DNA of 64,000 nt from Eledone cirrhosa. Its lineage: Eukaryota. Numbering within the stretch: the stretch's first letter is position 1; every line of letters begins with the position of its first letter. A program made the position numbers and the translations under genes. Below, in pieces: positions 8,101-63,787 of the stretch. The stretch lies in contig OZ024742.1 of NCBI GenBank assembly GCA_964016885.1, positions 280,674,001 through 280,738,000 of the forward strand, written 5' to 3'. The notes below the pieces were generated by a model. It worked only from the letters and a program-made list of their open reading frames with translations. It made no database searches and had not been told where the DNA came from.

Positions 8101-11100
8101 TTACAGGCATATGCTCAGAGTAGGCCCATTCACACGGGCCATTCTTGCCTCTTTCACCCATCTTTCAACAAATTGCTAGGAAGAGAGCACTTCCCTCTCT
8201 ACCCTGATTTTCCTTTTCAAATGAAATTAGAAAAAGTTAATCAGGGCATCACCGAAGAGGTAAGTGCTCGTCTTCAGCACTTTCAAACGCGTCCACCATA
8301 TTATCTCTTTCGCCATGGCTACCAGACAGATAAAAACTGCCTGCCCTTCCCGGCTAAAGGAAGAGGGTGGGGAAATCCTCACCTCCATGCCTGTAGAGTT
8401 TATCCCGAACTGGCAAAGCTCCTCGGTAGCACTGCCAGGCCAGGGATTTCTGGAAGTTGCCCATAGGCCCCGGCCCGAAACTTCTTCCGAAGAAATTGGC
8501 TAGTTGATTTTCGTCGACGCCTAGGGTGTGCCCAAGTACGTCGTTGCGCTTCCTCTCCACTGATCCTCTATAGAAAGCCAAGGTGGAGTTTCCACCAATC
8601 ACATTGCCCGATTAGTGGAGGGCTGTGAGCGCCTGAGGACATTCCAGTCTCCAAGCGCTCCCTCTCGGTCTTCGCTTGACCCAGGACTGCCGCTCCGTCA
8701 AGGAGACGAGCTGGGGAAAGACGCGTCTAGCAAACGGCGACCACACATGATCACCGTCGAGGAAGAGCTGAGGATGTCGTAGACTGAGCGCGTGGCTGCG
8801 CATCATCAGCCGCGGCATGCCCAGCCCTCCATGTAGCGGGTGTTGACAGCAGATGGACCGCCTGCCCATCGGAGCGCGTCCCTTTCACAAAAAGCGAAAG
8901 AGCAAACGCTCCAGCGCAGTCAGGCGAGACTTAGGACAAGGTAGGACGGTCAGGCGGTAGTAGATGATGGACGCGATGTACGCGTGAGCCACTTCCGCTC
9001 GACCTTTCAGGGATAGCTTCATCTCCGCCCATTTCTGGGTGAGAGAAGCCACCCTGCTCGTCACATCGTCCGAGTTTTTGTCCGTCTGGAGGTCCGAACC
9101 GAACCAGATCGCTAGCAATTTAACCGGTCCATCCGTCCGGCGCCCGACGACGGTGTTGGACGGCATGGACCTGCCTCTCCAGGTGCCGAGCTGCAGGCCC
9201 ACCGACTATTCCTGGTTGATCATTGCTCCCGTCACCGCTTTGTATTCTCTTAGTGTAGTGCCGATCGCCTCGATGTGTTTGGCGTTCGACACCACTACGG
9301 TGACATCGTCCGCATATGCTGACACGGATCTTCCGCATCCTAGTTCGCGCGGGACCCCCTTCAACGTCTCCAGTTTGTGCAGTAATGGCTCGAGAGTCAA
9401 TACATACAACATGGACGAGAGGGGACATCCTTGGCGGACTGAGCACATGATGTTGAAGGGTTCCGAAAGGTGGCCATTCACACTCACCACAGAGCAGATG
9501 TCGCTGTGCATGGCAGCGATCCAGCCTCTGAAGACGGGCTCAAAGCCAGCTGCCCTCAGGACTGCCGCCAGATAACGATGCTCGACCATATAGAAAGCAT
9601 TCGACTGATCTAAATTGATCCAGGCCCCACCCGTGCCAGGTTCCCTAGCTACCCTCTCCACCATGTATCGCATGAGGTGGAGGTTGTCGTAGGTGGATCT
9701 GTTTGGGGTGGCGCATGTTTGCGTCTCTCTCACCAGACCACCAACGACAAGCGCCAATCCCTTTGCTAGCACCTGGGCCAAAATCTTGAACTCTGTGTTT
9801 TGCAGGGTTATGGGCCTACTTTATCTATCTTATCCCCCTTGTTCGGATCCTTTCTCAGCAACGCCACCGCTCGTTGGCTCACAGAGCGGGGAATTCTCCT
9901 GTTGCGTTGCCAGTTGCATTAGACGTCCGCCAAGAGGTCTCCGAACAAGTCTGGCATGTGTACGTAAAGTTCGTAGGGCAGACCATCCAAATAGGCGATT
10001 TACCCTTTGTGCAGCCAGTCATTGCATCCAGTACTTTAGCTGATGTTATCGGCTTTTCACAACATTCCGACTCAGTGGCCGAGAGCCGCGGCAGTCCGTC
10101 GAGGTAGCCACTAAAGTCCATCCCGCGATCCGGCCCGCCGCTGCCCTGGATAGCTGGGCTAAGTGTCACTGAAAAGCTTCACACATTTCACCCGGGATCG
10201 AGTAGCATGCCCCCGTTGTGGCCCACCAAAGACCGGATTGTGGCTTTATTGACACAGCGCCCTTTGCCACGCGGGCCCATTGAATACCGTTCGTCCCCAT
10301 GTGTCTGAGAGCATGCATACTAGCTCTGACAACGCAGCCTTCGTGCTTTGCATTGAAGAATTGGTCGAGGGCCTATTTCGCCGCTAGCACGTCGGAATCA
10401 TTGCCTTTACTAAGCGGCTCGTCTAATGTTCTAACTAGTTCTCCCTCTGATCTATTTTTCTCTATTGCTAACGCCTTACTAAACCTAATGGACTTTATTC
10501 TAATCGCTCTCTTCAGAGCAAACCATCATTTGTTGTTGACGATGGCCCCCGTCAACGCCCGCTTAACTAGTTCGCTAATCCGGTCTCTCTAGGCCTTACG
10601 AGCTGTAACGACGCATTTAGCTTCCAGTAGCCGAGTCTCTGTCTATGAAGACTATCTAAGTCAACCTCACTGATCATGAATTACTGGTCCGTGTAGTCGA
10701 CTATTTTCAATTGTGGACAGCCTTTTCTAGACCTATCTATTTCCCTACGAAATATCTATCTAGATATGATCTGGATGACCCGACGCGGTTTGTCCATGTC
10801 CACATTAGCACAATCGGGAAATTCAGACGGTACCTATCAGACAGTTGAAACCGTCTGAGCAGGTTTCCGAGGCTTTACACCCTCCTCCCCTATCCGCTAA
10901 TCCCACACAGTTCAAGCGTGCATCCAAGATCCCGTTCCAGTCGTCCACTAACACTAAAGAGCGGGACATTCCAAGAAAGGTCTCCAGACGCCGGAAGAAA
11001 TCCAGCCGCCCTGCTCCTGTCGGGGCTTAGACGGCCTCTAGTCTGAACGATTGCCCGTCTACGCTGGTCACGTGCAGCACAACCAGCTTACCTTCTGGGT

Positions 11101-29475: not shown

Positions 29476-30302
<827 letters not shown>

Positions 30303-30668: not shown

Positions 30669-30812
30669 TTAGGTTAATAGGAGTTAGGTATTGTATACCC
30701 GTGTCCCATTAAGGTATTGGCAGCATAATAATTAGCTCTATGCTTTGGAGCAGAGCGCCGTATATATGAAAAAGAACACAAGAGCGCCTACAACATCAAA
30801 ATATTTTTATTG

Positions 30813-30857
30813 GCTTACAATGTTTCTACCTTACGTAACCGTAGGATTCGTCAGAGC
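30813..30857 (-). ncRNA. Minimal hammerhead in the inverted pLTR
   Basis: Minus strand: gct CTGACGA atcctacg gtta cgtaaggta GAAAC att GTA agc. Confidence 0.75.
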
Positions 30858-30870
30858 TATAAAAGGGATT

Positions 30871-31428
30871 TTATACCGTGATAACGCCCTCCTCACTCTC
30901 TAGTATAAAAAGTGCAATATAGAAAGAACTAGGAAGCAATTACGTAGGTTCTTTAAAAACTTTAATCTAAGTATTACCATAGATGCAAATGATAAAACAG
31001 TAAACTTCCTAGACGCCACCCTTGACCTAGAAAGTAAAACATTTGCACCCTACCATAAACCTAACGATAGACTAACATATGTAAACGCCAGCTCTAACCA
31101 CCCCAAATCAGTCCTAAACGCTATTCCCAAGGGGGTCTCTAATAGAATTAGCAGACTGTCCTGTAATGAGAGTATCTTCAACTCCAATGCAGAGTATTAT
31201 GACAAGGCCCTAGCAGAATCTGGTTACGGGAGTAGATTATCATATATACATAAGGACTCTCAAACCATGAGTGTGAAACCTACCAACATAATCACACATA
31301 GTATGGCCACAAAGCCTAACCAACTTAGAGGCAAGAATAATAGTAAAAACCCAAATGGCGGTAACCTAGCTAAATGTAAACCACGTAAAGACAATACTAG
31401 AGGCCCCACCACAACTCTAAAACAGTAA
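30871..31428 (+). pseudogene. PLE reverse transcriptase C-terminal/thumb remnant
   Basis: LYRDNALL*...KTVNFLDATLDL...PYHKPNDRLTYVNASSNHPKSVLNAIP...NRISRLS; YRDD appears as YRDN and there is an in-frame stop. Confidence 0.85.
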
Positions 31429-31439
31429 ATGATCACGCC

Positions 31440-32357
31440 ATGAATATAAACCATCCGGGCTTAAGCAAAACAGACAACGCCACTAACGTTAATAACGGAA
31501 ACCTACAAAATAGTACGCCCAGTAGCGAGACTCACCCCACAGATAAGAAAACTAGAAGAAGGAAAAACATGTATTTTAACCCACCTTTTAACTCTGAAGT
31601 CCTCACTAACCTCCCCAGAGTATTCTTCTCATTATTGGAAAAAAACTTCCCACCAGGCAATAGATATCGCAACATAATTAACAAAAACGTAATTAAATTA
31701 TCCTATTCGACCACACCTAACCTCGCATCACACCTAGCACGCACGAACATTAGGAGAACTAAGGAAGGCTTCGAAGCAATTAAAATGGCAGTTAACCACC
31801 AGCAACCGACTACACTGGAAAATGGGCAACATAATAGCATCAATGAACCATCTAGTGATATAGAGGCACCTAGTGATAATGCTAGTAACCAAACTTCGGG
31901 AGGTAAGCTAACTAATCGAACCCGCAGTTGCAACTGTAGGCGGAGTAGTAACTGTCCCCTAAGGGGGGATTGCCTCATGAAAAACATAGTATATGCATGT
32001 GACGTAACCACACACAACTCTACCAAAACATATATAGGAGCAACGTCCAATACATTTAAAACTAGATTTAACGCGCATATATACACATTTAGACACGACA
32101 GACATAAGAATGCCACCTCACTGGCGGGATACATCTACTTCTTAAAAAATAATAGTACCCCATACAAACTTTTTTGGAGTAAGCTTACTAGATCCACGCC
32201 ATACCGACCGCAGAGTGGAAGTTGTGACCTGTGTTTACTGGAATGCCATGCCATAATACACTCTAAACTGAACCTGCTTAACGGGAAATCGGAAATTTTC
32301 TCCTCATGCCAACACAAAATCCTGAGTTCCTTCTTCTATTTTAAACCTAGCACATAG
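31440..32357 (+). CDS. PLE linker plus C-terminal GIY-YIG endonuclease (open part of a disrupted ORF)
   Basis: RRKNMYFNPPFN...SYS, CNCRRSSNCPLRGDCL, NIVYACDV...YIGATSNTFKTRFNAH, CDLCLLE. Confidence 0.85.
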   Translation: MNINHPGLSKTDNATNVNNGNLQNSTPSSETHPTDKKTRRRKNMYFNPPFNSEVLTNLPRVFFSLLEKNFPPGNRYRNIINKNVIKLSYSTTPNLASHLARTNIRRTKEGFEAIKMAVNHQQPTTLENGQHNSINEPSSDIEAPSDNASNQTSGGKLTNRTRSCNCRRSSNCPLRGDCLMKNIVYACDVTTHNSTKTYIGATSNTFKTRFNAHIYTFRHDRHKNATSLAGYIYFLKNNSTPYKLFWSKLTRSTPYRPQSGSCDLCLLECHAIIHSKLNLLNGKSEIFSSCQHKILSSFFYFKPST

Positions 32358-34580
32358 ACGTAACATATATCACGCAACCCCCATCTAGACTATAGCTTCC
32401 CCCCCTTCCCCCCCAACCTGTAACCCAGATAGATAGGTACCCTAAGGGTGGTACAGTCCCCTACAAGGTTGGTGTTTTTGCTTGTGTGTGTGTGTGTGTG
32501 TGTATTCTCCTTTTATCTCTCACACGCACACACACGCAGACATATGTGTGGGTGTGCGTGTGTGTGTGCATGCATGCACGCATGTGTGCGTGCATTGTAT
32601 GCATGTATATTGTATGTATATATATATATGTATATTGTATGCATGCGTATGATATTGTGTGTATGTGTATATGTGACATGTATTTGAATATATGTATGTA
32701 TGCGTATGAGTGTGTATGTGTAAGTGTATGATATGTGTATATCTGTGTATATGTATGTATACTTTTCTGTAGAAATTCTCTCTATATGTCGTGTGTGGCA
32801 CGAATTCCTCCTATAATACTCTTCTCTGAGAGGAGCACGATATGCAGAGTAACACATATGTATTGTCGAAGTTGAAACTGAGAACCACCACCCCTCCTGC
32901 TGACCCAAATGTTTACTGAGGACCAGAACACCATTCTCCGCAATATAAGAGCGAAATGCGCTTGCCGGACTATTGATGACCATAACATCACATTCAAAGG
33001 TAATGGCAAAACACAGTGAATGCTATGCACGACCAGAACACCACAGCATGCATATCCGAGCAACACAGATATAATATCAATAGGGGAATCAACTGAAATA
33101 CATATGGATATGTGTCTGTGTGTATCGGACACACGTACACATAAAGAAGCTGTAGACCTAAATATACCTGTCATGCCTGTCTGAATTCCTAAGGGAATTG
33201 TCGGTCAGTTACTGTCTTGACCGATTGTAGTACCACTGGGTGAATCATTTGAGTTTTTTGAGTTGAAATACATATAAATATGTGTCTGTGTGTGTCGGAC
33301 ACACGTACACATAAAGAAGCTGCCGACCTAAATGTGCCTGTCATGCCTGCCTGAATTTTCGGTCAGTTGCTGACTTGACCGATTAACCCCACAATTACTA
33401 CGTAGCGGTTCTTGCACGTGACTGCTGGACCCGGATGAAACGAAGACGAAGAATTTCCTTGCGTACCGTTTTGTACCACAGATGCGATCTCACCCAGCTT
33501 CGTTAATGTCCTATCGACACCAAAGTTCAACGCTCGGGCGAATAGATTTGAATCCAACCACCAACAACATAGCTGGATGACCGATAATCACACCAAACCG
33601 GAGTACTGTGATCCTTGTGATTTCCAGATATACAACCACTGACACTGCTACGAAGACCAGAAAACCATACTCCATATATTGAACCAATTGATTGGTTTGT
33701 GCGACCAAAATAACACCAAACACATATTGAACTAGGAATATTGGATCCTCCGTCAATGTCCGGGTGAGCAAAAATAGATTTCTATCTGCATTGGAATTTA
33801 CAAACTTGTGCATCTGCTGTGGTGTCAAAAACAAACGCGCATGACCGCACAAATAAACAATGGACCATGCCACGTGGCTTGAACCCGTAAGTGAATTGAA
33901 GGTTCTGCAACTCTGATACACAGATTATTTATTATTAAGATGTATAACCTTGACATAACTATTATATTATATTCTCTCAACTAATCACACTTGATCATAT
34001 TTCTCTGTCCCGTTTTCTCCCCCCATAATTATAATATTTTTATTATTATTTGAAAAAAATCGGTTTTTTTACATTGTGTTTTCCCCTCCAAATATTCGCT
34101 TATATTTCTTTATATATTCTCTATATATTTTTTTTATCTTTCTTATTTCCACTTTTATCTTATCCTCCTTTATATTTTACCTTATTCTTACTTTTATACA
34201 TTATTATAGTGTAATCTTCCCCCATGCCTTATTATACACTATTAATTATAGATTATTATTATTACTCTTTTTCCATTTCTAATTACCTCATGTACTTTCT
34301 CCTCCGCTATATATATATATATATTGTACGCTCTTTGTGTTTGTGTAGCCTCTGCGCACCCTCTGCACCATACTATCGACGCCGCCCCATCTATGGTTCA
34401 GCTAACCACCCGACTCCCGGGAATGAATATGACCGCAGCTAGTAAACAAGGACCCACACCCGACCCTCCCGCACCAAATTTAGACTTATCGTCCCCTACT
34501 TTTGCTCTTTACTCTCTTTACTCTTTGTTCTTGAATGTTTGGTTGGTAGAGTCCATAAAACCAATCAAACCCCTTTTATA

Positions 34581-34625
34581 GCTCTGACGAATCCTACGGT
34601 TACGTAAGGAAGAAACATTGTAAGC
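34581..34625 (+). ncRNA. Minimal hammerhead in the 3' pLTR
   Basis: gct CTGACGA a tcctacg gtta cgtaagga a GAAAC att GTA agc, followed by aataaa. Confidence 0.8.
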
Positions 34626-34670
34626 CAATAAACATCTTTTGATGTTGTAGACGCTCTTGTGTTCTTTTTC

Positions 34671-36066
<1,396 letters not shown>

Positions 36067-36155
36067 GATACATAGAGACAGATAGACACAAACAGATTAG
36101 TTGGAGTGAAATTGTAGTAAGTTAGTTAATTTCCATAATTCTCTTATTTTACGTC

Positions 36156-36190
<35 letters not shown>

Positions 36191-36196
<6 letters not shown>

Positions 36197-36300
36197 CTGT
36201 AGAAATAAAGACAGTAACTCGTGTATTTAAAATAACAATAACTTATACGTTATTGTTATTTTAAATACACGTGTTACTGTCTTTATTTCTACAGATATTA
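36191..36300. repeat. 110 bp hairpin nested in (TA)n
   Basis: taatatctgtagaaataaagacagtaac...aataac / gttatt...gttactgtctttatttctacagatatta. Confidence 0.85.
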
Positions 36301-36303
36301 TAT

Positions 36304-36345
<42 letters not shown>

Positions 36346-36393
36346 GACGTAAAATAAGAGAATTATGAAAATTAACTTACTTACTACAATTTC

Positions 36394-36474
36394 ACTCCAA
36401 CTAATTAGTTTCTGTAAGGGAATAAATATGGTCACGTAAGGTAATCATAGAGAATCCTTACGTCATCAGGGAGT
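36394..36474 (-). ncRNA. Type I hammerhead ribozyme, unit 1
   Basis: Minus strand: actcc CTGATGA c gtaagg...ccttac a GAAAC taatta GTT ggagt. Confidence 0.85.
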
Positions 36475-36921
36475 CTATCCTCAGCTAAGTTCCTAGGCAA
36501 TGCGTGGATACAGGGAACTCATATAAAAATAATTCAGTGGATGGAAAAAAGCGAGCCAGGACAAAATTCCAGGACATTGAAAAAATTCACTGCCTACTTG
36601 GTCAGTGTCAAATTCAAAAGAATCAATCACGTGACACTGAGGTTAATCAGTGAGGAGAGGGATAGTAATAAGACAGGGGCCTGACCACTACCATGATTCA
36701 TAGTAGTAATTTCGGCAAATTTTTAATCAACAAATAATTTGGAGATAATTATAAAGAATTAGTATATCTACCAACATATGTATACAGATGCATACCTATG
36801 CTAGCAAATATATAGGTTTTGTCGTAGTAACTTTGTATTTCAATGCAAGCGGATGCAGAACAATTATATGAAAGACGTAAAATAAGAGAATTATGAAAAT
36901 TAACTTACTTACTAAAATTTC

Positions 36922-37003
36922 ACTCCAACTAATTAGTTTCTGTAAGGGTATAATATATGTTTACGTAACGTAATCATAGAGAACCCTTACGTCATCAGGA
37001 AGT
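36922..37003 (-). ncRNA. Type I hammerhead ribozyme, unit 2
   Basis: Minus strand: acttc CTGATGA c gtaaggg...cccttac a GAAAC taatta GTT ggagt. Confidence 0.85.
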
Positions 37004-37450
37004 CTATTCTCAGCTAAGTTCCTAGGCAATGCGTGGACACAGGGAACTCATATAAAAATAATTCAGTGGATGGAAAAAAGTGAGCCGGGACTAAATTCCA
37101 GGACATTGAAACAATTCACTGCCTACTTGGTCAATGGCAAATTCAAAAGAATCAATCACGTGACACTGAGGTTAATCAGTGAGTAGTGGGATGATAATAA
37201 GATAGGGGCCTGACCACTACCATGAACCATAGTAGTAATTTCGGCAAATTTTTACTCAACAAATAATTTGGAGATAATTATAAAGAATTAGTATATCTAC
37301 CAACATATGTATACAGATGCATACCTTTATAATTGTGAATTTGTTCAATGTCCTAGAATTTAGTCACCGCTCGCTTTATTCCATCCACTGAATTATTTTT
37401 ATATGAGTTCCCTGTGTCCACGCATTGCCTAGGAACTTAGCTGAGAATAG

Positions 37451-37531
37451 ACTCCCTGATGACGTAAGTATTCTCTATGATTACGTTACGTAACCATATT
37501 TATTCCCTTACAGAAACTAATTAGTTGGAGT
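37451..37531 (+). ncRNA. Type I hammerhead ribozyme, inverted copy
   Basis: actcc CTGATGA c gtaag...cttac a GAAAC taatta GTT ggagt. Confidence 0.85.
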
Positions 37532-37730
37532 GAAATTTTAGTAAGTAAGTTAATTTTCATAATTCTCTTATTTTACGTATTTCATATAATTGTTCTGCAT
37601 CCCCTTGCATTGAACTACAAAGTTACTATGACAAAACCTATATATTTGCTAGCATAGGTATGCATCTGTATACATATGTATATAACGATATGTGCTTTTA
37701 GGATTCTCTAGAGAGGCCGGAGGATGGGTA

Positions 37731-37775
37731 AATATTGCTGATGAGATGTAATAACATCGAAACTAGTCCAATATT
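37731..37775 (+). ncRNA. Canonical minimal hammerhead ribozyme
   Basis: aatattg CTGATGA gatgt aata acatc GAAAC ta GTC caatatt; perfect 7 bp stem I, 5 bp stem II and GUC site. Confidence 0.92.
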
Positions 37776-37989
37776 CCTGTCTGGCTCTCTGGAGAATAGA
37801 GGAAAGGTGTTTCCTCGAAAACCAGTATGACTCTAAAAACCGGTTTGTCTGTGTGTTTACATACGGACTAGCTGAACACTCACAGTAAAGTGTCCAGTGA
37901 AAAGCTCGGTACATGTACATATGTATACGTGTGTGTATTTATATGCATACTAGTATTTCAGTATACATATGTGGATGTACACTTTTAAC

Positions 37990-38098
<109 letters not shown>

Positions 38099-50076: not shown

Positions 50077-51250
50077 CTAAGGCGGGTAAAATTCCCGAGA
50101 TCCATGGACGAGCTCTCTCCAGCGGTCTATGTCCCTCATTATCGCTGCCATATCCTGCATCTCCAACAGACCAGTGTCTGTCCTTAGGGCATCAACATAT
50201 GTTAACCTTGGTCTTCCTCTTCTAGTGTGTCCATGTAGGGGCTCCCAAAGGAGCACTGAGTGCAATGTCAACTCTGGATGTCGGTGAGCATGTCCAGCCA
50301 ACCTCAGTCTCCTCTGTGTCACTTTTGAGCTGACTTTTGGGATGCTCCCATACAGCTCTGAGTTTTTCATCCTCAGTGTATACTGATTAATGTTCAGAGC
50401 CATCCTCAGCATTCTCGTATAGCACCCATCCACCATGTGAGTGAGTCTCTTGGTCAGTGTCCAAGTCTCAGACCCATACAGCAGCACAAACTCCACTACA
50501 GCAATGAAGAGGCGGATTTTCAGGTCTCTACGAAGGTCCGACTTCCACACCGATCTCAAGCTGTGACCCGCCGCCCAGGCATTGCTCTTCCTCTCAACCA
50601 CATCATCTTCCGTATTCCCAATCTTTGCTCCCAAATACAGGAAGTCCTCAACCAATTCCAGCGGCTTCCCGCCTACATTAGTGATCCCCTCTGGCTTCTC
50701 AACATTCTCTACCAGATATTTTGTTTTAGTCTCATTCATTCTCAGCCCCACACTCATCGACACAGTCTCAACCTCCCGCATCAAATCATCTGCCTCCTTC
50801 ACTATATTTGTCACCAAAACTATGTCGTCGGCAAATTCAGCATCCGATACCTTTTTTCGCCCGAACTCTCCTCCTCTGAGCCGGTGCTACAGTAAAGCCA
50901 GAGTCCTGGTGTTTCTCCAGTGCAAGGCGCATATAATAGTCCACTACGATGATAAAAAGGTAGGGAGCCAATGTATCTCCCTGGAGCACTCCAGCCAGTA
51001 TCTCAAAGAACTCTGTCATCCCATCAGGTGTAATGACTTGGGCTTTGGTGTTGGTGTAGAGCAGTGATATCAGGTCCACTATCCTCTTGGGGATTCCATA
51101 AGCCTGTAAGATCTTCATCAGGCAGTAACGGTCCACAGAATCAAAGGCCTTCCTAAAGTCAATGAAAACCATGACCGCAGGAAGGCATTTTGCTCTAGCT
51201 TCCTCTAATATCCTCCTCAGCATCAGGATGTGACTGGTGGTTGATCTACC
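50077..51250 (-). mobile_element. 5'-truncated RTE-type LINE (RT C-terminal half)
   Basis: FIDFRKAFDSV, GVLQGDTLAPYLF, EFADDIV, FLYLG, LLYGSETW; the stop codon runs into a (TAGA)n tail. Confidence 0.92.
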
Positions 51251-51287
<37 letters not shown>

Positions 51288-52040
51288 CAGTGGCGGACTG
51301 GGACTAAATATATTGGTTGCCAGGAGAGGAAGGGGGCTCACCCACATATAGAATGCTAACAATTAATTTTTATAATTAATAAATAACATTTTCAAAAAAT
51401 ACGTTAAGTGGAAACAAAACAGTGCACTCAAATGTTTGCAGAAAAAAATATTACCTTCTCCAATAAAAAAATATTACGTATTTTGCGAAATCCAGAGATT
51501 TTCAATAATGTCTTTTGGTCTTTCACACTCACTCAATATACATACATACGTATATATATGTATATATATATATATATATATGATCAACCTGTTAGCTCTA
51601 TCGTTACTTTGGTATATTATTGTGTGTTAGATTTTGCCTCCCACAATGTTCAATTTGTCAAGCTGTTTAAACGTATGTCATTACTCTAAGGTCCTAACTT
51701 ATCGAGTGCTTTGCTAATTCATCATTTCATATAAGTAGGCTGAATTTGCTTGCAAACCGCCAGAGATTCGATTTTACTAAATTTCCAATTATATATATAT
51801 ATATATAGTTTTGCGACCTTTTTGATATGAAATCGTATGTCGAAACAAATATTGTTATACTTGGGAGGGTCATATTTGTGTAAAAATATTGCCAGAATTG
51901 ATAACAGAACACACTCACTGTATAACAGAAAACAGTGTATTTCAATAACCTTTCAGCTTGGCACAAGCTAATGCCATAACGCGAGTGTTCTGTTATCAAT
52001 TCTGGCAATATTATTACACAAATATGACTCTCCCCAAGTA

Positions 52041-52707: not shown

Positions 52708-52778
<71 letters not shown>

Positions 52779-52947
52779 AATTAATATCTAGTAACATATA
52801 TATATACATACAGATGCATATCAATGCTAGCAAATATATAGGTTTTGTCTTAGTAACTTTGTGGTTCAATGCATGGGGTTGCAGAACAATAATATGAGAG
52901 ACGTAAAATAAGAAAATTATAAAATTAACTTACTTACTAAAATTTTA

Positions 52948-53027
52948 CTCCTAACTAATTAGTTTCTGAAATGGAATAAATATACTTTCCGAAGAAAATA
53001 TTGAGAAGCATTTCGTCGTCAGGGAAG
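52948..53027 (-). ncRNA. Type I hammerhead ribozyme
   Basis: Minus strand: cttcc CTGACGA c gaaatg...catttc a GAAAC taatta GTT aggag. Confidence 0.8.
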
Positions 53028-53770
53028 ACTATTCTCAGCTAAGTATGCAGGCAAAGCGTGGACTCTGGAAACTTATTCAAAAATAATTCAGTGGATAGAA
53101 AATAGCAAAGCGTGGACTGAATTCCTAGCCATTGAGAAAACCACTGCCTCTGCGTCGGTGGCAAATTCAAAAAGAATCAATCACGTGACATCGAGGTCAA
53201 TCAGTGGAAAGTGGTTTGTTAATAAGACAGCGGCCTGCCTGCTACCATAGCAGCAGTCTTGGCCTATATTGCTCGACAAATAATTTGGAGATAATTATAA
53301 AGAATTAATATCTAGTAACATATATATACATACAGATGCATATCAATGCTAGCAAATATATAGGTTTTGTCTAAGTAACTTTGTGGTTCAATGCATGGGG
53401 TTGCAGAACAATATTATGAGAGACGTAAAATAAGAAAATTATAAAATTAACTTACTTACTAAAATTTTGTATATATATGTTACTAGATATTAATTGTTTA
53501 TAATTATCTCCAAATTATTTGTCGAGTAATATTGGCCAAGACTGCTGCTATGGTAGCAGGCAGGCCGCTGTCTTATTAACAGACCACTTTCCACTTATTG
53601 ACCTCGATGTCACGTGATTGATACTTTTTGAATTTGCCACCGACGCAGAGGCAGTGATTTTCTCAATGGCTAGGAATTCAGTCCACGCTTTGCTATTTTC
53701 TATCTACTGAATTATTTTTGAATAAGTTTCCAGAGTCCACGCTTTGCCTGGATACTTAGCTGAGAATAGT

Positions 53771-53850
53771 CTTCCCTGACGACGAAATGCTTCTCAATAT
53801 TTTCTTCGGAAAGTATATTTATTCCATTTCAGAAACTAATTAGTTGGGAG
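53771..53850 (+). ncRNA. Type I hammerhead ribozyme
   Basis: cttcc CTGACGA c gaaatg...ttc ttcg gaa...catttc a GAAAC taatta GTT gggag. Confidence 0.85.
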
Positions 53851-53892
53851 TGAAATTTTAGTAAGTTAATTTTATAATTTTCTTATTTTACG

Positions 53893-53923
<31 letters not shown>

Positions 53924-62845: not shown

Positions 62846-63787
62846 CACATTTGAGCTGACTTTTGGGAGGCTTCCATATAGCTTTGATTTTTCATCCTCA
62901 GTGTATACTGATTAATGTTCAGAGCCATCCTCAGCATTCTCGTGTAGCACCCATCCACCATGTAAGTGAGTTTCTTGGTCAGTGTCCAAGCCCCAGACCC
63001 GTGCAGCAGCAAAGAATCCACTACTGAAATGTAGAGGCGGATTTTCAGGTCTTTACGAAGGTCCGACTTCCACACCTATCTCAAGCTGTGGCACGCCGCC
63101 CAGGCTTTGCTCTTCCTCTCAACCACATCATCTTCCGTATTCAAAATCTCTGCTCCCAAATACAGGAAGTCCTCAACCAATTCTTGCGGCTTTCCGCCTA
63201 CATTAGTGATCCCCTCTCGCTTCTCAACATTTTCTACCAGATATTTTGTTTTAGTCTCATTCATTCTCAGCCCCACACTCATCGACACAGTCTCAACTTC
63301 CTGCATCAAATCCTCTGCCTCCTTCACTGTATTTGTCACCATTACTATGTCGCCGGCAAATTCAGCATCCGATATCTTTTTCGCCTTAACTCTCCTGCTC
63401 TGAGCCGGTGCTACAGTAAAGCCAGAGTCCTGCTGTTTCTCCAGTGCAAGGTGCATAGAATAGTCCACTACGATGATAAAAAGGTAGGGAACCAATGTAT
63501 CTCCCTGGATCACTCCAGCCAGTATCTCAAAGAACTCAGTCATCCCATCAGAGTTGACTGAGGTTAGCTGGACATGCTCCCCGACATCCAGAGTTAACAT
63601 TGCACTCAGTGCTCCTGTGGGAGCCCCTACATGGATACACTGGAAGAAGAAGACCAGGGTTAACGTATGTTGATGCGCTAAGGACAGATACTAGTCTGTT
63701 GGAGACGCAGAACATTGCAGCGATAATGAAGGACAGAGACCGCTGGAGAGAACTCGTCCATGGATCTCGGGAATTTTACCCGCCCTA

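What the first reader, a model, noticed from the sequence alone, without database searches (positions are those of the whole stretch)
36096..37680. Non-coding ~528 nt tandem units with one HHR each: candidate circular-RNA retrozyme
Seen: about 1.9 head-to-tail units with HHRs 528 nt apart (36394, 36922), an inverted copy with a third HHR, no coding capacity, and (TA)n flanks. Inference: a read-through transcript would be cut into a unit-length monomer that could circularise and be copied by a PLE RT, giving greater-than-unit-length insertions.
Basis: partly seen in the sequence, partly recalled or inferred. Interest (0 to 1): 0.88.

Follow-up and report, generated by a model that had tools for sequence, protein, structure and literature searches.

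The report
Two-armed hammerhead retrozyme, Penelope-inserted
This is one of thousands of copies of a 528-base protein-free repeat carrying a self-cutting RNA motif, and its insertions bear the marks of a Penelope-type jumping-gene enzyme that likely copied one unit-length, probably circular, RNA from both sides of a DNA break; the class is known, but this copying step has only been proposed.

Summary
The locus has 1.9 head-to-tail 528-nt units and an inverted arm, three type I hammerhead (HHR) cores, and no coding frame. It belongs to a family with at least 2,748 exact cut-site matches, covarying HHR stems and arrays of up to 16 units. No attached ORF was found, so it is not a mere pLTR.

Copies end at two fixed sites, +62 (A) and +177 (B) from the cut, in (TA)n. 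Of 90 head-to-head insertions, 60 pair A with B, none A with A, and one B with B. Coding Hydra-type Penelope elements in this genome have the same layout and a related hairpin just 3' of each site. All laps of both arms derive from one unit sequence: 14 variants are shared by all laps, 3 are lap-specific, and one insertion is an exception.

Best reading: a non-LTR retrozyme mobilised by a Hydra-type RT, likely from a unit-length circle. Cleavage, expression and circularity are not shown; no RNA run was available. The scan already noted this architecture and the hairpin in other families of this genome.

The parts
36337..37326 (-). Direct arm, 990 nt: unit +130..+528, a full unit, then +1..+62; 3' end at site A running into (TA)n
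36399..36926 (-). Full 528-nt monomer, cut site to cut site (predicted RNA unit)
   Evidence: circular MFE -119.1 kcal/mol, z -3.6 against 60 shuffles
36376..36490 (-). HHR 1: core CUGAUGA at 36469, cut between 36399 and 36398, interrupted stem I, long stem II with C-A at its base, palindromic stem III ACUAAUUAGU
36904..37019 (-). HHR 2: core at 36998, cut between 36927 and 36926
36838..36861 (-). Bulged hairpin 1 (GUUCUG...CAUUGAAC type) just 3' of site A, shared in form with coding Hydra-type PLEs; this copy has a changed last base
36750..36865 (-). Segment between start sites A (+62) and B (+177): the 115-nt equivalent of the PLE 'tail'
37255..37274 (-). Weak second bulged hairpin just 3' of site B (UCUC-CAAA...UUUG-UUGAG)
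   Evidence: motif in 92 of 125 read-through copies
37327..37334 (.). Head-to-head junction of the two arms, 8 nt (TTATAATT)
37335..37679 (+). Inverted arm, 345 nt: unit +337..+528 then +1..+153 (ends 24 nt short of site B); HHR 3 core at 37456, first post-cut base 37527; intact hairpin 1 at 37592-37615
36096..36164 (+). Mirror copy of the arm end, part of an inverted duplication 36086-36415 made after insertion
   Evidence: self-match 90% over 340 nt; private G+12 shared
36314..36341 (.). (TA)n target at the site A end
52772..53903 (.). Second insertion of the same family (about 80% identical subfamily), also two-armed, ends at B (52772) and A (53903), both in (TA)n

Best explanation
This is one insertion of an abundant non-coding non-LTR retrozyme family whose copies end at two fixed sites in (TA)n, and it was likely written into DNA by a Hydra-type Penelope RT/endonuclease that primed from both sides of a break on one unit-length, probably circular, RNA. 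Shown from sequence: the unit, the covarying HHR, the sites +62 and +177, their A-with-B pairing, and the same layout and hairpins in coding Hydra-type elements. Inferred steps: (1) read-through transcription of tandem units; (2) HHR cleavage, probably as a dimer through the palindromic stem III, to a 528-nt monomer, then ligation to a circle; (3) binding of a PLE protein dimer at the hairpins 3' of A and B; (4) cutting of both strands of (TA)n and internal priming, one end at A and the other at B; (5) both RTs run over the cut junction for zero to several laps; (6) the two cDNA 3' ends join by short overlaps, giving a head-to-head insertion.
For: Ends: 68 of 168 arms end exactly at +62 and 58 at +177; TA follows in 70 of 73 A arms and 62 of 71 B arms. 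Genome-wide there are 2,698 A-to-TA and 1,230 B-to-TA exact junction matches, with different pattern stringency. Pairing: 44 AB, 0 AA, 0 BB of 61; 60 AB, 0 AA, 1 BB, 29 with a non-standard end, of 90 in the enlarged overlapping set; the BB lies in a local duplication. Coding elements with DKT and CxCX5C motifs and 849-850 aa frames show HHR, an end near +50, a hairpin at +58, an end near +148-155 and a second hairpin at +157; L211 and L214 have opposed A/B ends. One template: arms of one insertion differ by a median 3.0% against 10.3% between loci (47 insertions); tandem laps 2.9% against 9.9% (48). Of 3,619 informative columns, 157 had a single-copy change, 14 a change in all laps of both arms, and 3 a lap-specific shared change. 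Junctions are clean: 165 of 179 read GTTG and 2 carry an extra base; the extra-G form is a subfamily of 533 matches. In vitro, a PLE protein cuts and extends both strands and starts at two internal sites that define the tail (PMC11167929, main text read).
Against: There is no evidence of cleavage, expression or circles. The base of stem II is C-A in 132 of 137 copies, not G-C, and the MFE folds of all three window HHRs pair the core instead of leaving it free. One insertion (G000:C2:66.69 Mb, found by a junction-variant search) has GG>TT at +1/+2 and further changes shared only by the outermost laps of both arms, which fits a multimeric template or gene conversion. The 14 all-lap variants sit in 5 insertions and could be markers of unsampled subfamilies. 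In PMC11167929, HHR mutants did not affect insertion in vitro and uncut RNA was the main template. No A-to-G editing excess was seen (36/5279 against T>C 72/7269). No coding family with this very HHR was found.
Confidence: 0.62

Rival explanations
1. The same Hydra-type two-site priming, but on uncut linear multimeric transcripts from young tandem arrays. The HHR acts elsewhere (for example, trimming the 5' end), and arrays are renewed by DNA-level duplication.
For: In-register sharing in the C2:66.69 Mb insertion and at one site in L228. A 16-unit array exists, with three near-identical unit pairs (0.2-1.4%) showing DNA-level exchange. HHR cleavage was dispensable in vitro in PMC11167929.
Against: Only 3 in-register changes against 157 single-copy changes in 3,619 columns of unselected insertions, so source arrays would have to be far younger than average copies. 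Most units of the long array differ by 4-8%.
Confidence: 0.2
2. The template is the cut linear monomer, and the RT crosses the junction by end-to-end template jumps, so no circle is needed.
For: 5' ends of arms are enriched at +1..+12 (12 of 122, p 2.4e-5 against uniform). Double changes at +1/+2 were found 4 times, in 3 insertions, against 0 and 1 at control positions.
Against: Junction length is almost invariant. The 5'-end cluster coincides with the palindrome AAATTT at +7..+12, which would favour joining of two same-sense cDNAs anyway. The counts are small.
Confidence: 0.12
3. The unit is only the pLTR or 3' end of a coding PLE that was not found, or a satellite spread by DNA recombination.
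For: PLE fragments lie near some copies: 15 of 63 flanks had RT or EN hits. L126 joins a Hydra-type 3' UTR directly to the unit.
Against: After site B the sequence runs on into the next unit, up to 16 times, with no ORF. Flanks share no common breakpoint. 0 of 29 other copies of the L126 PLE continue into the unit. No unit match was found in 50 Hydra-type loci. Fixed paired ends are not expected from satellite recombination.
Confidence: 0.06

Closest known systems
Metazoan non-LTR retrozymes (Cervera and de la Pena 2020, PMC7229834, parts 2-4 of 6 read; Li, Clavereau and Pollet 2026, 10.64898/2026.07.22.740005, parts 1-3 of 5 read)
   Same: Non-coding tandem units with one type I HHR each, GC below 50%, thousands of dispersed copies, monomer to multimer, coexisting with PLEs; PLE mobilisation from a circle is proposed there.
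   Different: The unit is longer than the 170-400 nt of the first paper but within the 51-972 bp of the second. The parts read do not describe two fixed RT start sites, paired head-to-head arms, (TA)n targeting or a Hydra-type cis hairpin. Circles were shown there by northern blot, not here.
Hydra clade of C-terminal EN+ Penelope-like elements (Craig et al. 2021, PMC8557442, passages and section 11 read)
   Same: (TA)n targeting, canonical HHR, tandem plus inverted 5'-truncated arms, a tail at one end; here also the same A-hairpin-B-hairpin module as local coding copies with DKT and CxCX5C motifs.
   Different: No ORF. The tail is 115 nt against the 30-40 bp given for PLEs (about 100 nt in the local coding copies). 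The HHR has a longer stem II and a different stem III. No nucleotide-level match to any sampled coding family.
Poseidon PAc of Anolis (Frangieh et al. 2024, PMC11167929, parts 1-2 of 4 read)
   Same: Two internal RT start sites downstream of the HHR cut that define the tail; both DNA strands cut and extended; AT-rich targets; predicted protein dimer.
   Different: An autonomous element of another clade; starts in an AC-rich stem loop without target homology, whereas both sites here end in TA-like letters that could pair with (TA)n; no strand preference for either site was seen in vitro, whereas A and B are strictly paired here.

Membership tests
Non-LTR retrozyme | Tandem head-to-tail units, each with a type I HHR | tested here: met
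Non-LTR retrozyme | No protein-coding capacity; no LTR-retroelement layout | tested here: met
   longest frame 77 aa; circularly permuted units with ends inside the unit; PBS/PPT not searched separately
Non-LTR retrozyme | Dispersed high-copy family, GC below 50% | tested here: met
   2,215 + 533 exact cut-site matches; 2,293 candidates
Non-LTR retrozyme | HHR self-cleaves | not testable with these tools
   core and stems conserved and covarying, but C-A at the base of stem II and alternative MFE folds
Non-LTR retrozyme | Expressed as unit-length linear and circular RNA | not testable with these tools
   no RNA holder listed; only indirect genomic support
Non-LTR retrozyme | Target-site duplication when present | tested here: inconclusive
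   target is (TA)n, so no TSD can be read
Autonomous Hydra-clade PLE | ORF with RT and C-terminal GIY-YIG, DKT and CxCX5C motifs | tested here: not met
   none in the unit; present in local coding elements
Autonomous Hydra-clade PLE | (TA)n targeting, HHR, tandem/inverted arms and a tail | tested here: met
pLTR of a coding PLE | Unit sequence flanks an ORF in at least some copies, at a shared boundary | tested here: not met
   63 flanks, 50 GIY-YIG loci, 50 Hydra-type loci, all 8 altered-junction matches, 29 copies of the L126 PLE; a sample of a 3-Gb genome, not a census

The most novel reading that the evidence does not exclude
A single small circular RNA carries twin bulged hairpins that load a Penelope RT dimer asymmetrically. 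One subunit primes at +62 on one end of a (TA)n break and the other at +177 on the opposite end, and both roll round the same circle. This obligate two-site rolling-circle TPRT would explain both the PLE tail and retrozyme spread.
Probability: 0.4. Interest if true: 0.8.

Novelty: new variant of a known kind. Interest (0 to 1): 0.55.

Why it matters
How non-LTR retrozymes are reverse-transcribed and integrated is proposed in the papers read but not shown there, and the origin of the PLE tail and inverted arms is still open. This family offers a 528-nt substrate with two mapped start sites, candidate protein-binding hairpins, a strict A-with-B rule, and full-length 849-850 aa Hydra-type frames in the same genome. 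That makes both questions testable in vitro. The class itself is known, and the scan has met the same architecture in other families here, which limits the surprise.

Tried and rejected
Rfam at gathering score: no match.

RNA evidence: no RNA holder listed. Two contig runs of unrecorded type were laid and say nothing on expression.

Matching autonomous element: not found.
- L048 and L069 are chance neighbours of GIY-YIG loci.
- The 8 matches with an altered post-cut sequence are ordinary family copies with no linked ORF.
- The L126 junction is a one-off.

Position-specific differences between terminal and inner laps recurring across loci: none beyond edge effects.

In-register test: a first, lenient version was noisy from alignment run-on into TA (35/6817 against 76/19832, p 0.16) and was replaced. 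One search used a mis-set structure string and is void; one search is the valid count.

Fold-back self-priming (proposed in PMC3846280, passages read): only about 10 of 61 junctions have both 5' ends within 10 nt of each other (my count), so it cannot be the general route.

Literature: (octopus, hammerhead ribozyme, Penelope) listed only PMC8557442. One search gave two general reviews (listing only). One search was uninformative. Supplements were not seen (Cervera Fig. S9 model, Craig files S1-S2, the bioRxiv tables) and may hold related elements.

Host taxon not tested; earlier notes call it a cephalopod.

Full report
Observation. Read on the minus strand, 36337-37326 is 1.9 copies of a 528-nt unit (94.8% identical over 462 nt), and 37335-37679 is an inverted arm. 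Three CUGAUGA cores lie at 36469, 36998 and 37456. The two direct cut sites are exactly 528 nt apart. There is no coding frame and no Rfam match at gathering score. (TA)n lies at the left end only. The piece 36096-36164 is a mirror duplication made after insertion, because it shares a variant seen in 2 of 199 pieces, both at this locus.

The ribozyme. Across 137 distinct copies (picked by core and stem III motifs, so core conservation is partly by choice), six stem II pairs hold in 127-137 copies, with swaps such as U-A/A-U/C-G. The base of stem II is C-A in 132. On 27 diverse copies the full type I structure has 94.5% of 879 cells paired and 8 pairs changed on both sides, against 34-48% for slid controls. 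Related copies inflate such counts. Stem III is a short palindrome, the form that PMC7229834 links to dimeric cleavage in amphibian HHRs. MFE folds of the three window copies trap the core, so activity is likely but unproven.

The family. The genome is 3.0 Gb. A 35-mer across the cut site has 2,215 exact matches and an extra-G subfamily has 533. Subfamilies range from about 75% to 96% identity to the window unit. One array holds 15 full and 2 partial units. A second, 80%-identical insertion lies in this window at 52772-53903.

Two fixed ends. Numbering from the cut, 68 of 168 arms end at +62 (site A) and 58 at +177 (site B), nearly always into (TA)n. Of 61 complete head-to-head insertions, 44 pair A with B, none pair like with like, and 17 have a non-standard end (18 were best-hit loci and 43 came from the first exact matches on C1). 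An enlarged, overlapping set of 90 gave 60 AB, 0 AA, 1 BB and 29 others; the BB is inside a local duplication. Either arm can be the longer. The window locus is A plus +153. Most junctions overlap or differ by a few bases. This is the PLE tail: PMC8557442 and PMC3846280 describe an extension at one end of inverted insertions, and PMC11167929 shows that it marks two internal RT start sites.

Which enzyme. A broken coding PLE at 30669-34674 and its relatives with 849-850 aa open frames carry DKT and CxCX5C motifs, which PMC8557442 gives for the Hydra clade. The RWK motif reads RWR, the elements are about 5 kb rather than under 3 kb, and no tree was built. They show the same module: HHR, an end near +50, a bulged hairpin GCUCUG...CAUAGAGC at +58, an end near +148-155 and a second hairpin at +157. 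The retrozyme has GUUCUG...CAUUGAAC after A, a compensated form, and a weaker hairpin ending U(U/C)GAGC after B in most of the 92 motif matches among 125 copies. No coding element with this very HHR was found in 63 flanks, 50 GIY-YIG loci or 50 Hydra-type loci. One Hydra-type 3' UTR joined to the unit is a one-off: 0 of 29 other copies continue into it.

One template. The two arms of an insertion differ by a median 3.0%, against 10.3% to other loci, and the partner arm is the closest sequence in 23 of 47. Tandem laps give 2.9% against 9.9%. The window locus is older or more mixed than most, at 5.5-6.2%. 49 locus-private variants are shared by all copies of an insertion, against 594 single-copy ones. 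A linear multimer from an aged array should pass on lap-specific variants in register to both arms. Among 60 AB insertions, 3,619 informative columns gave 157 single-copy, 14 all-lap, 3 in-register and 12 other patterns. This favours a unit-length template read repeatedly.

Against the circle. The 14 all-lap variants cluster in 5 insertions. One insertion, picked by a junction-variant search, shares four changes only between its outermost laps. 5' ends cluster at +1..+12 (12 of 122), though a palindrome there may explain it. No editing excess was seen. Junction length is almost invariant, which suits a circle better than template jumps.

Verdict. It works like a non-autonomous Hydra-type PLE and meets the testable sequence criteria of a non-LTR retrozyme; cleavage and circular RNA are untested. 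The two-site, paired-arm footprint was not found for retrozymes in the papers read or in searches, supplements unseen. Earlier notes of this scan report it for 310-, 422- and 467-nt families of this genome, and the hairpin for others. No note matched this sequence. I found the pairing and the first hairpin before reading the notes on each; the second hairpin and the editing test came from them.

Noticed in passing
window 30669-34674: Broken two-armed Hydra-type coding PLE (GIY-YIG fragment 31401-32354, HHRs at 30854 minus and 34584 plus) with opposed B and A ends; relatives with 849-850 aa open frames at L207 and L208.
   Followed up: yes
window 37685-37995: A different HHR repeat abuts the right end (core at 37738, stem III ACUAGU). 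A relative lies at 29892 (minus), and two cores of that relative lie 511 nt apart in L071: probably another retrozyme family.
   Followed up: partly
window 36190-36305: A roughly 115-nt palindrome at the centre of the inverted duplication 36086-36415; its arms resemble the post-cut end of another HHR family.
   Followed up: no
L126:1820-3840 (G000:C1:66.62 Mb): A 5'-truncated Hydra-type PLE whose 3' end is replaced, about 40 nt before its own HHR, by this unit from +236: a possible RT template-switch chimera that may point to the mobilising family. L123 also abuts PLE-like sequence without a TA run.
   Followed up: partly
L231/L232 (G000:C2:66.69 Mb); L228, L229, L233, L234: Double changes exactly at +1/+2 of the cut site (GG to TT or AC) in single laps; 4 matches against 0 and 1 at control positions.
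   Followed up: partly
L165/L111 (G000:C1:94.666-94.674 Mb): Array of 15 full units plus partial ends, most 4-8% apart, with three non-adjacent near-identical pairs (0.2-1.4%), showing DNA-level exchange.
   Followed up: partly
window 36597-36640 (unit +287..+330): Conserved block with CACGTG (E-box-like; name recalled) inside a predicted hairpin; a possible promoter element.
   Followed up: no
window 18989, 20907 (minus), 15277 (minus), 1909 (minus): Further HHR-like cores of other families; the genome has 10,597 GIY-YIG and 63,259 Hydra-type endonuclease candidates at first look.
   Followed up: no
window 9209-9820, 50080-51337, 63079-63690 (all minus): RT fragments (Pfam RVT_1) of other retroelements.
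   Followed up: no
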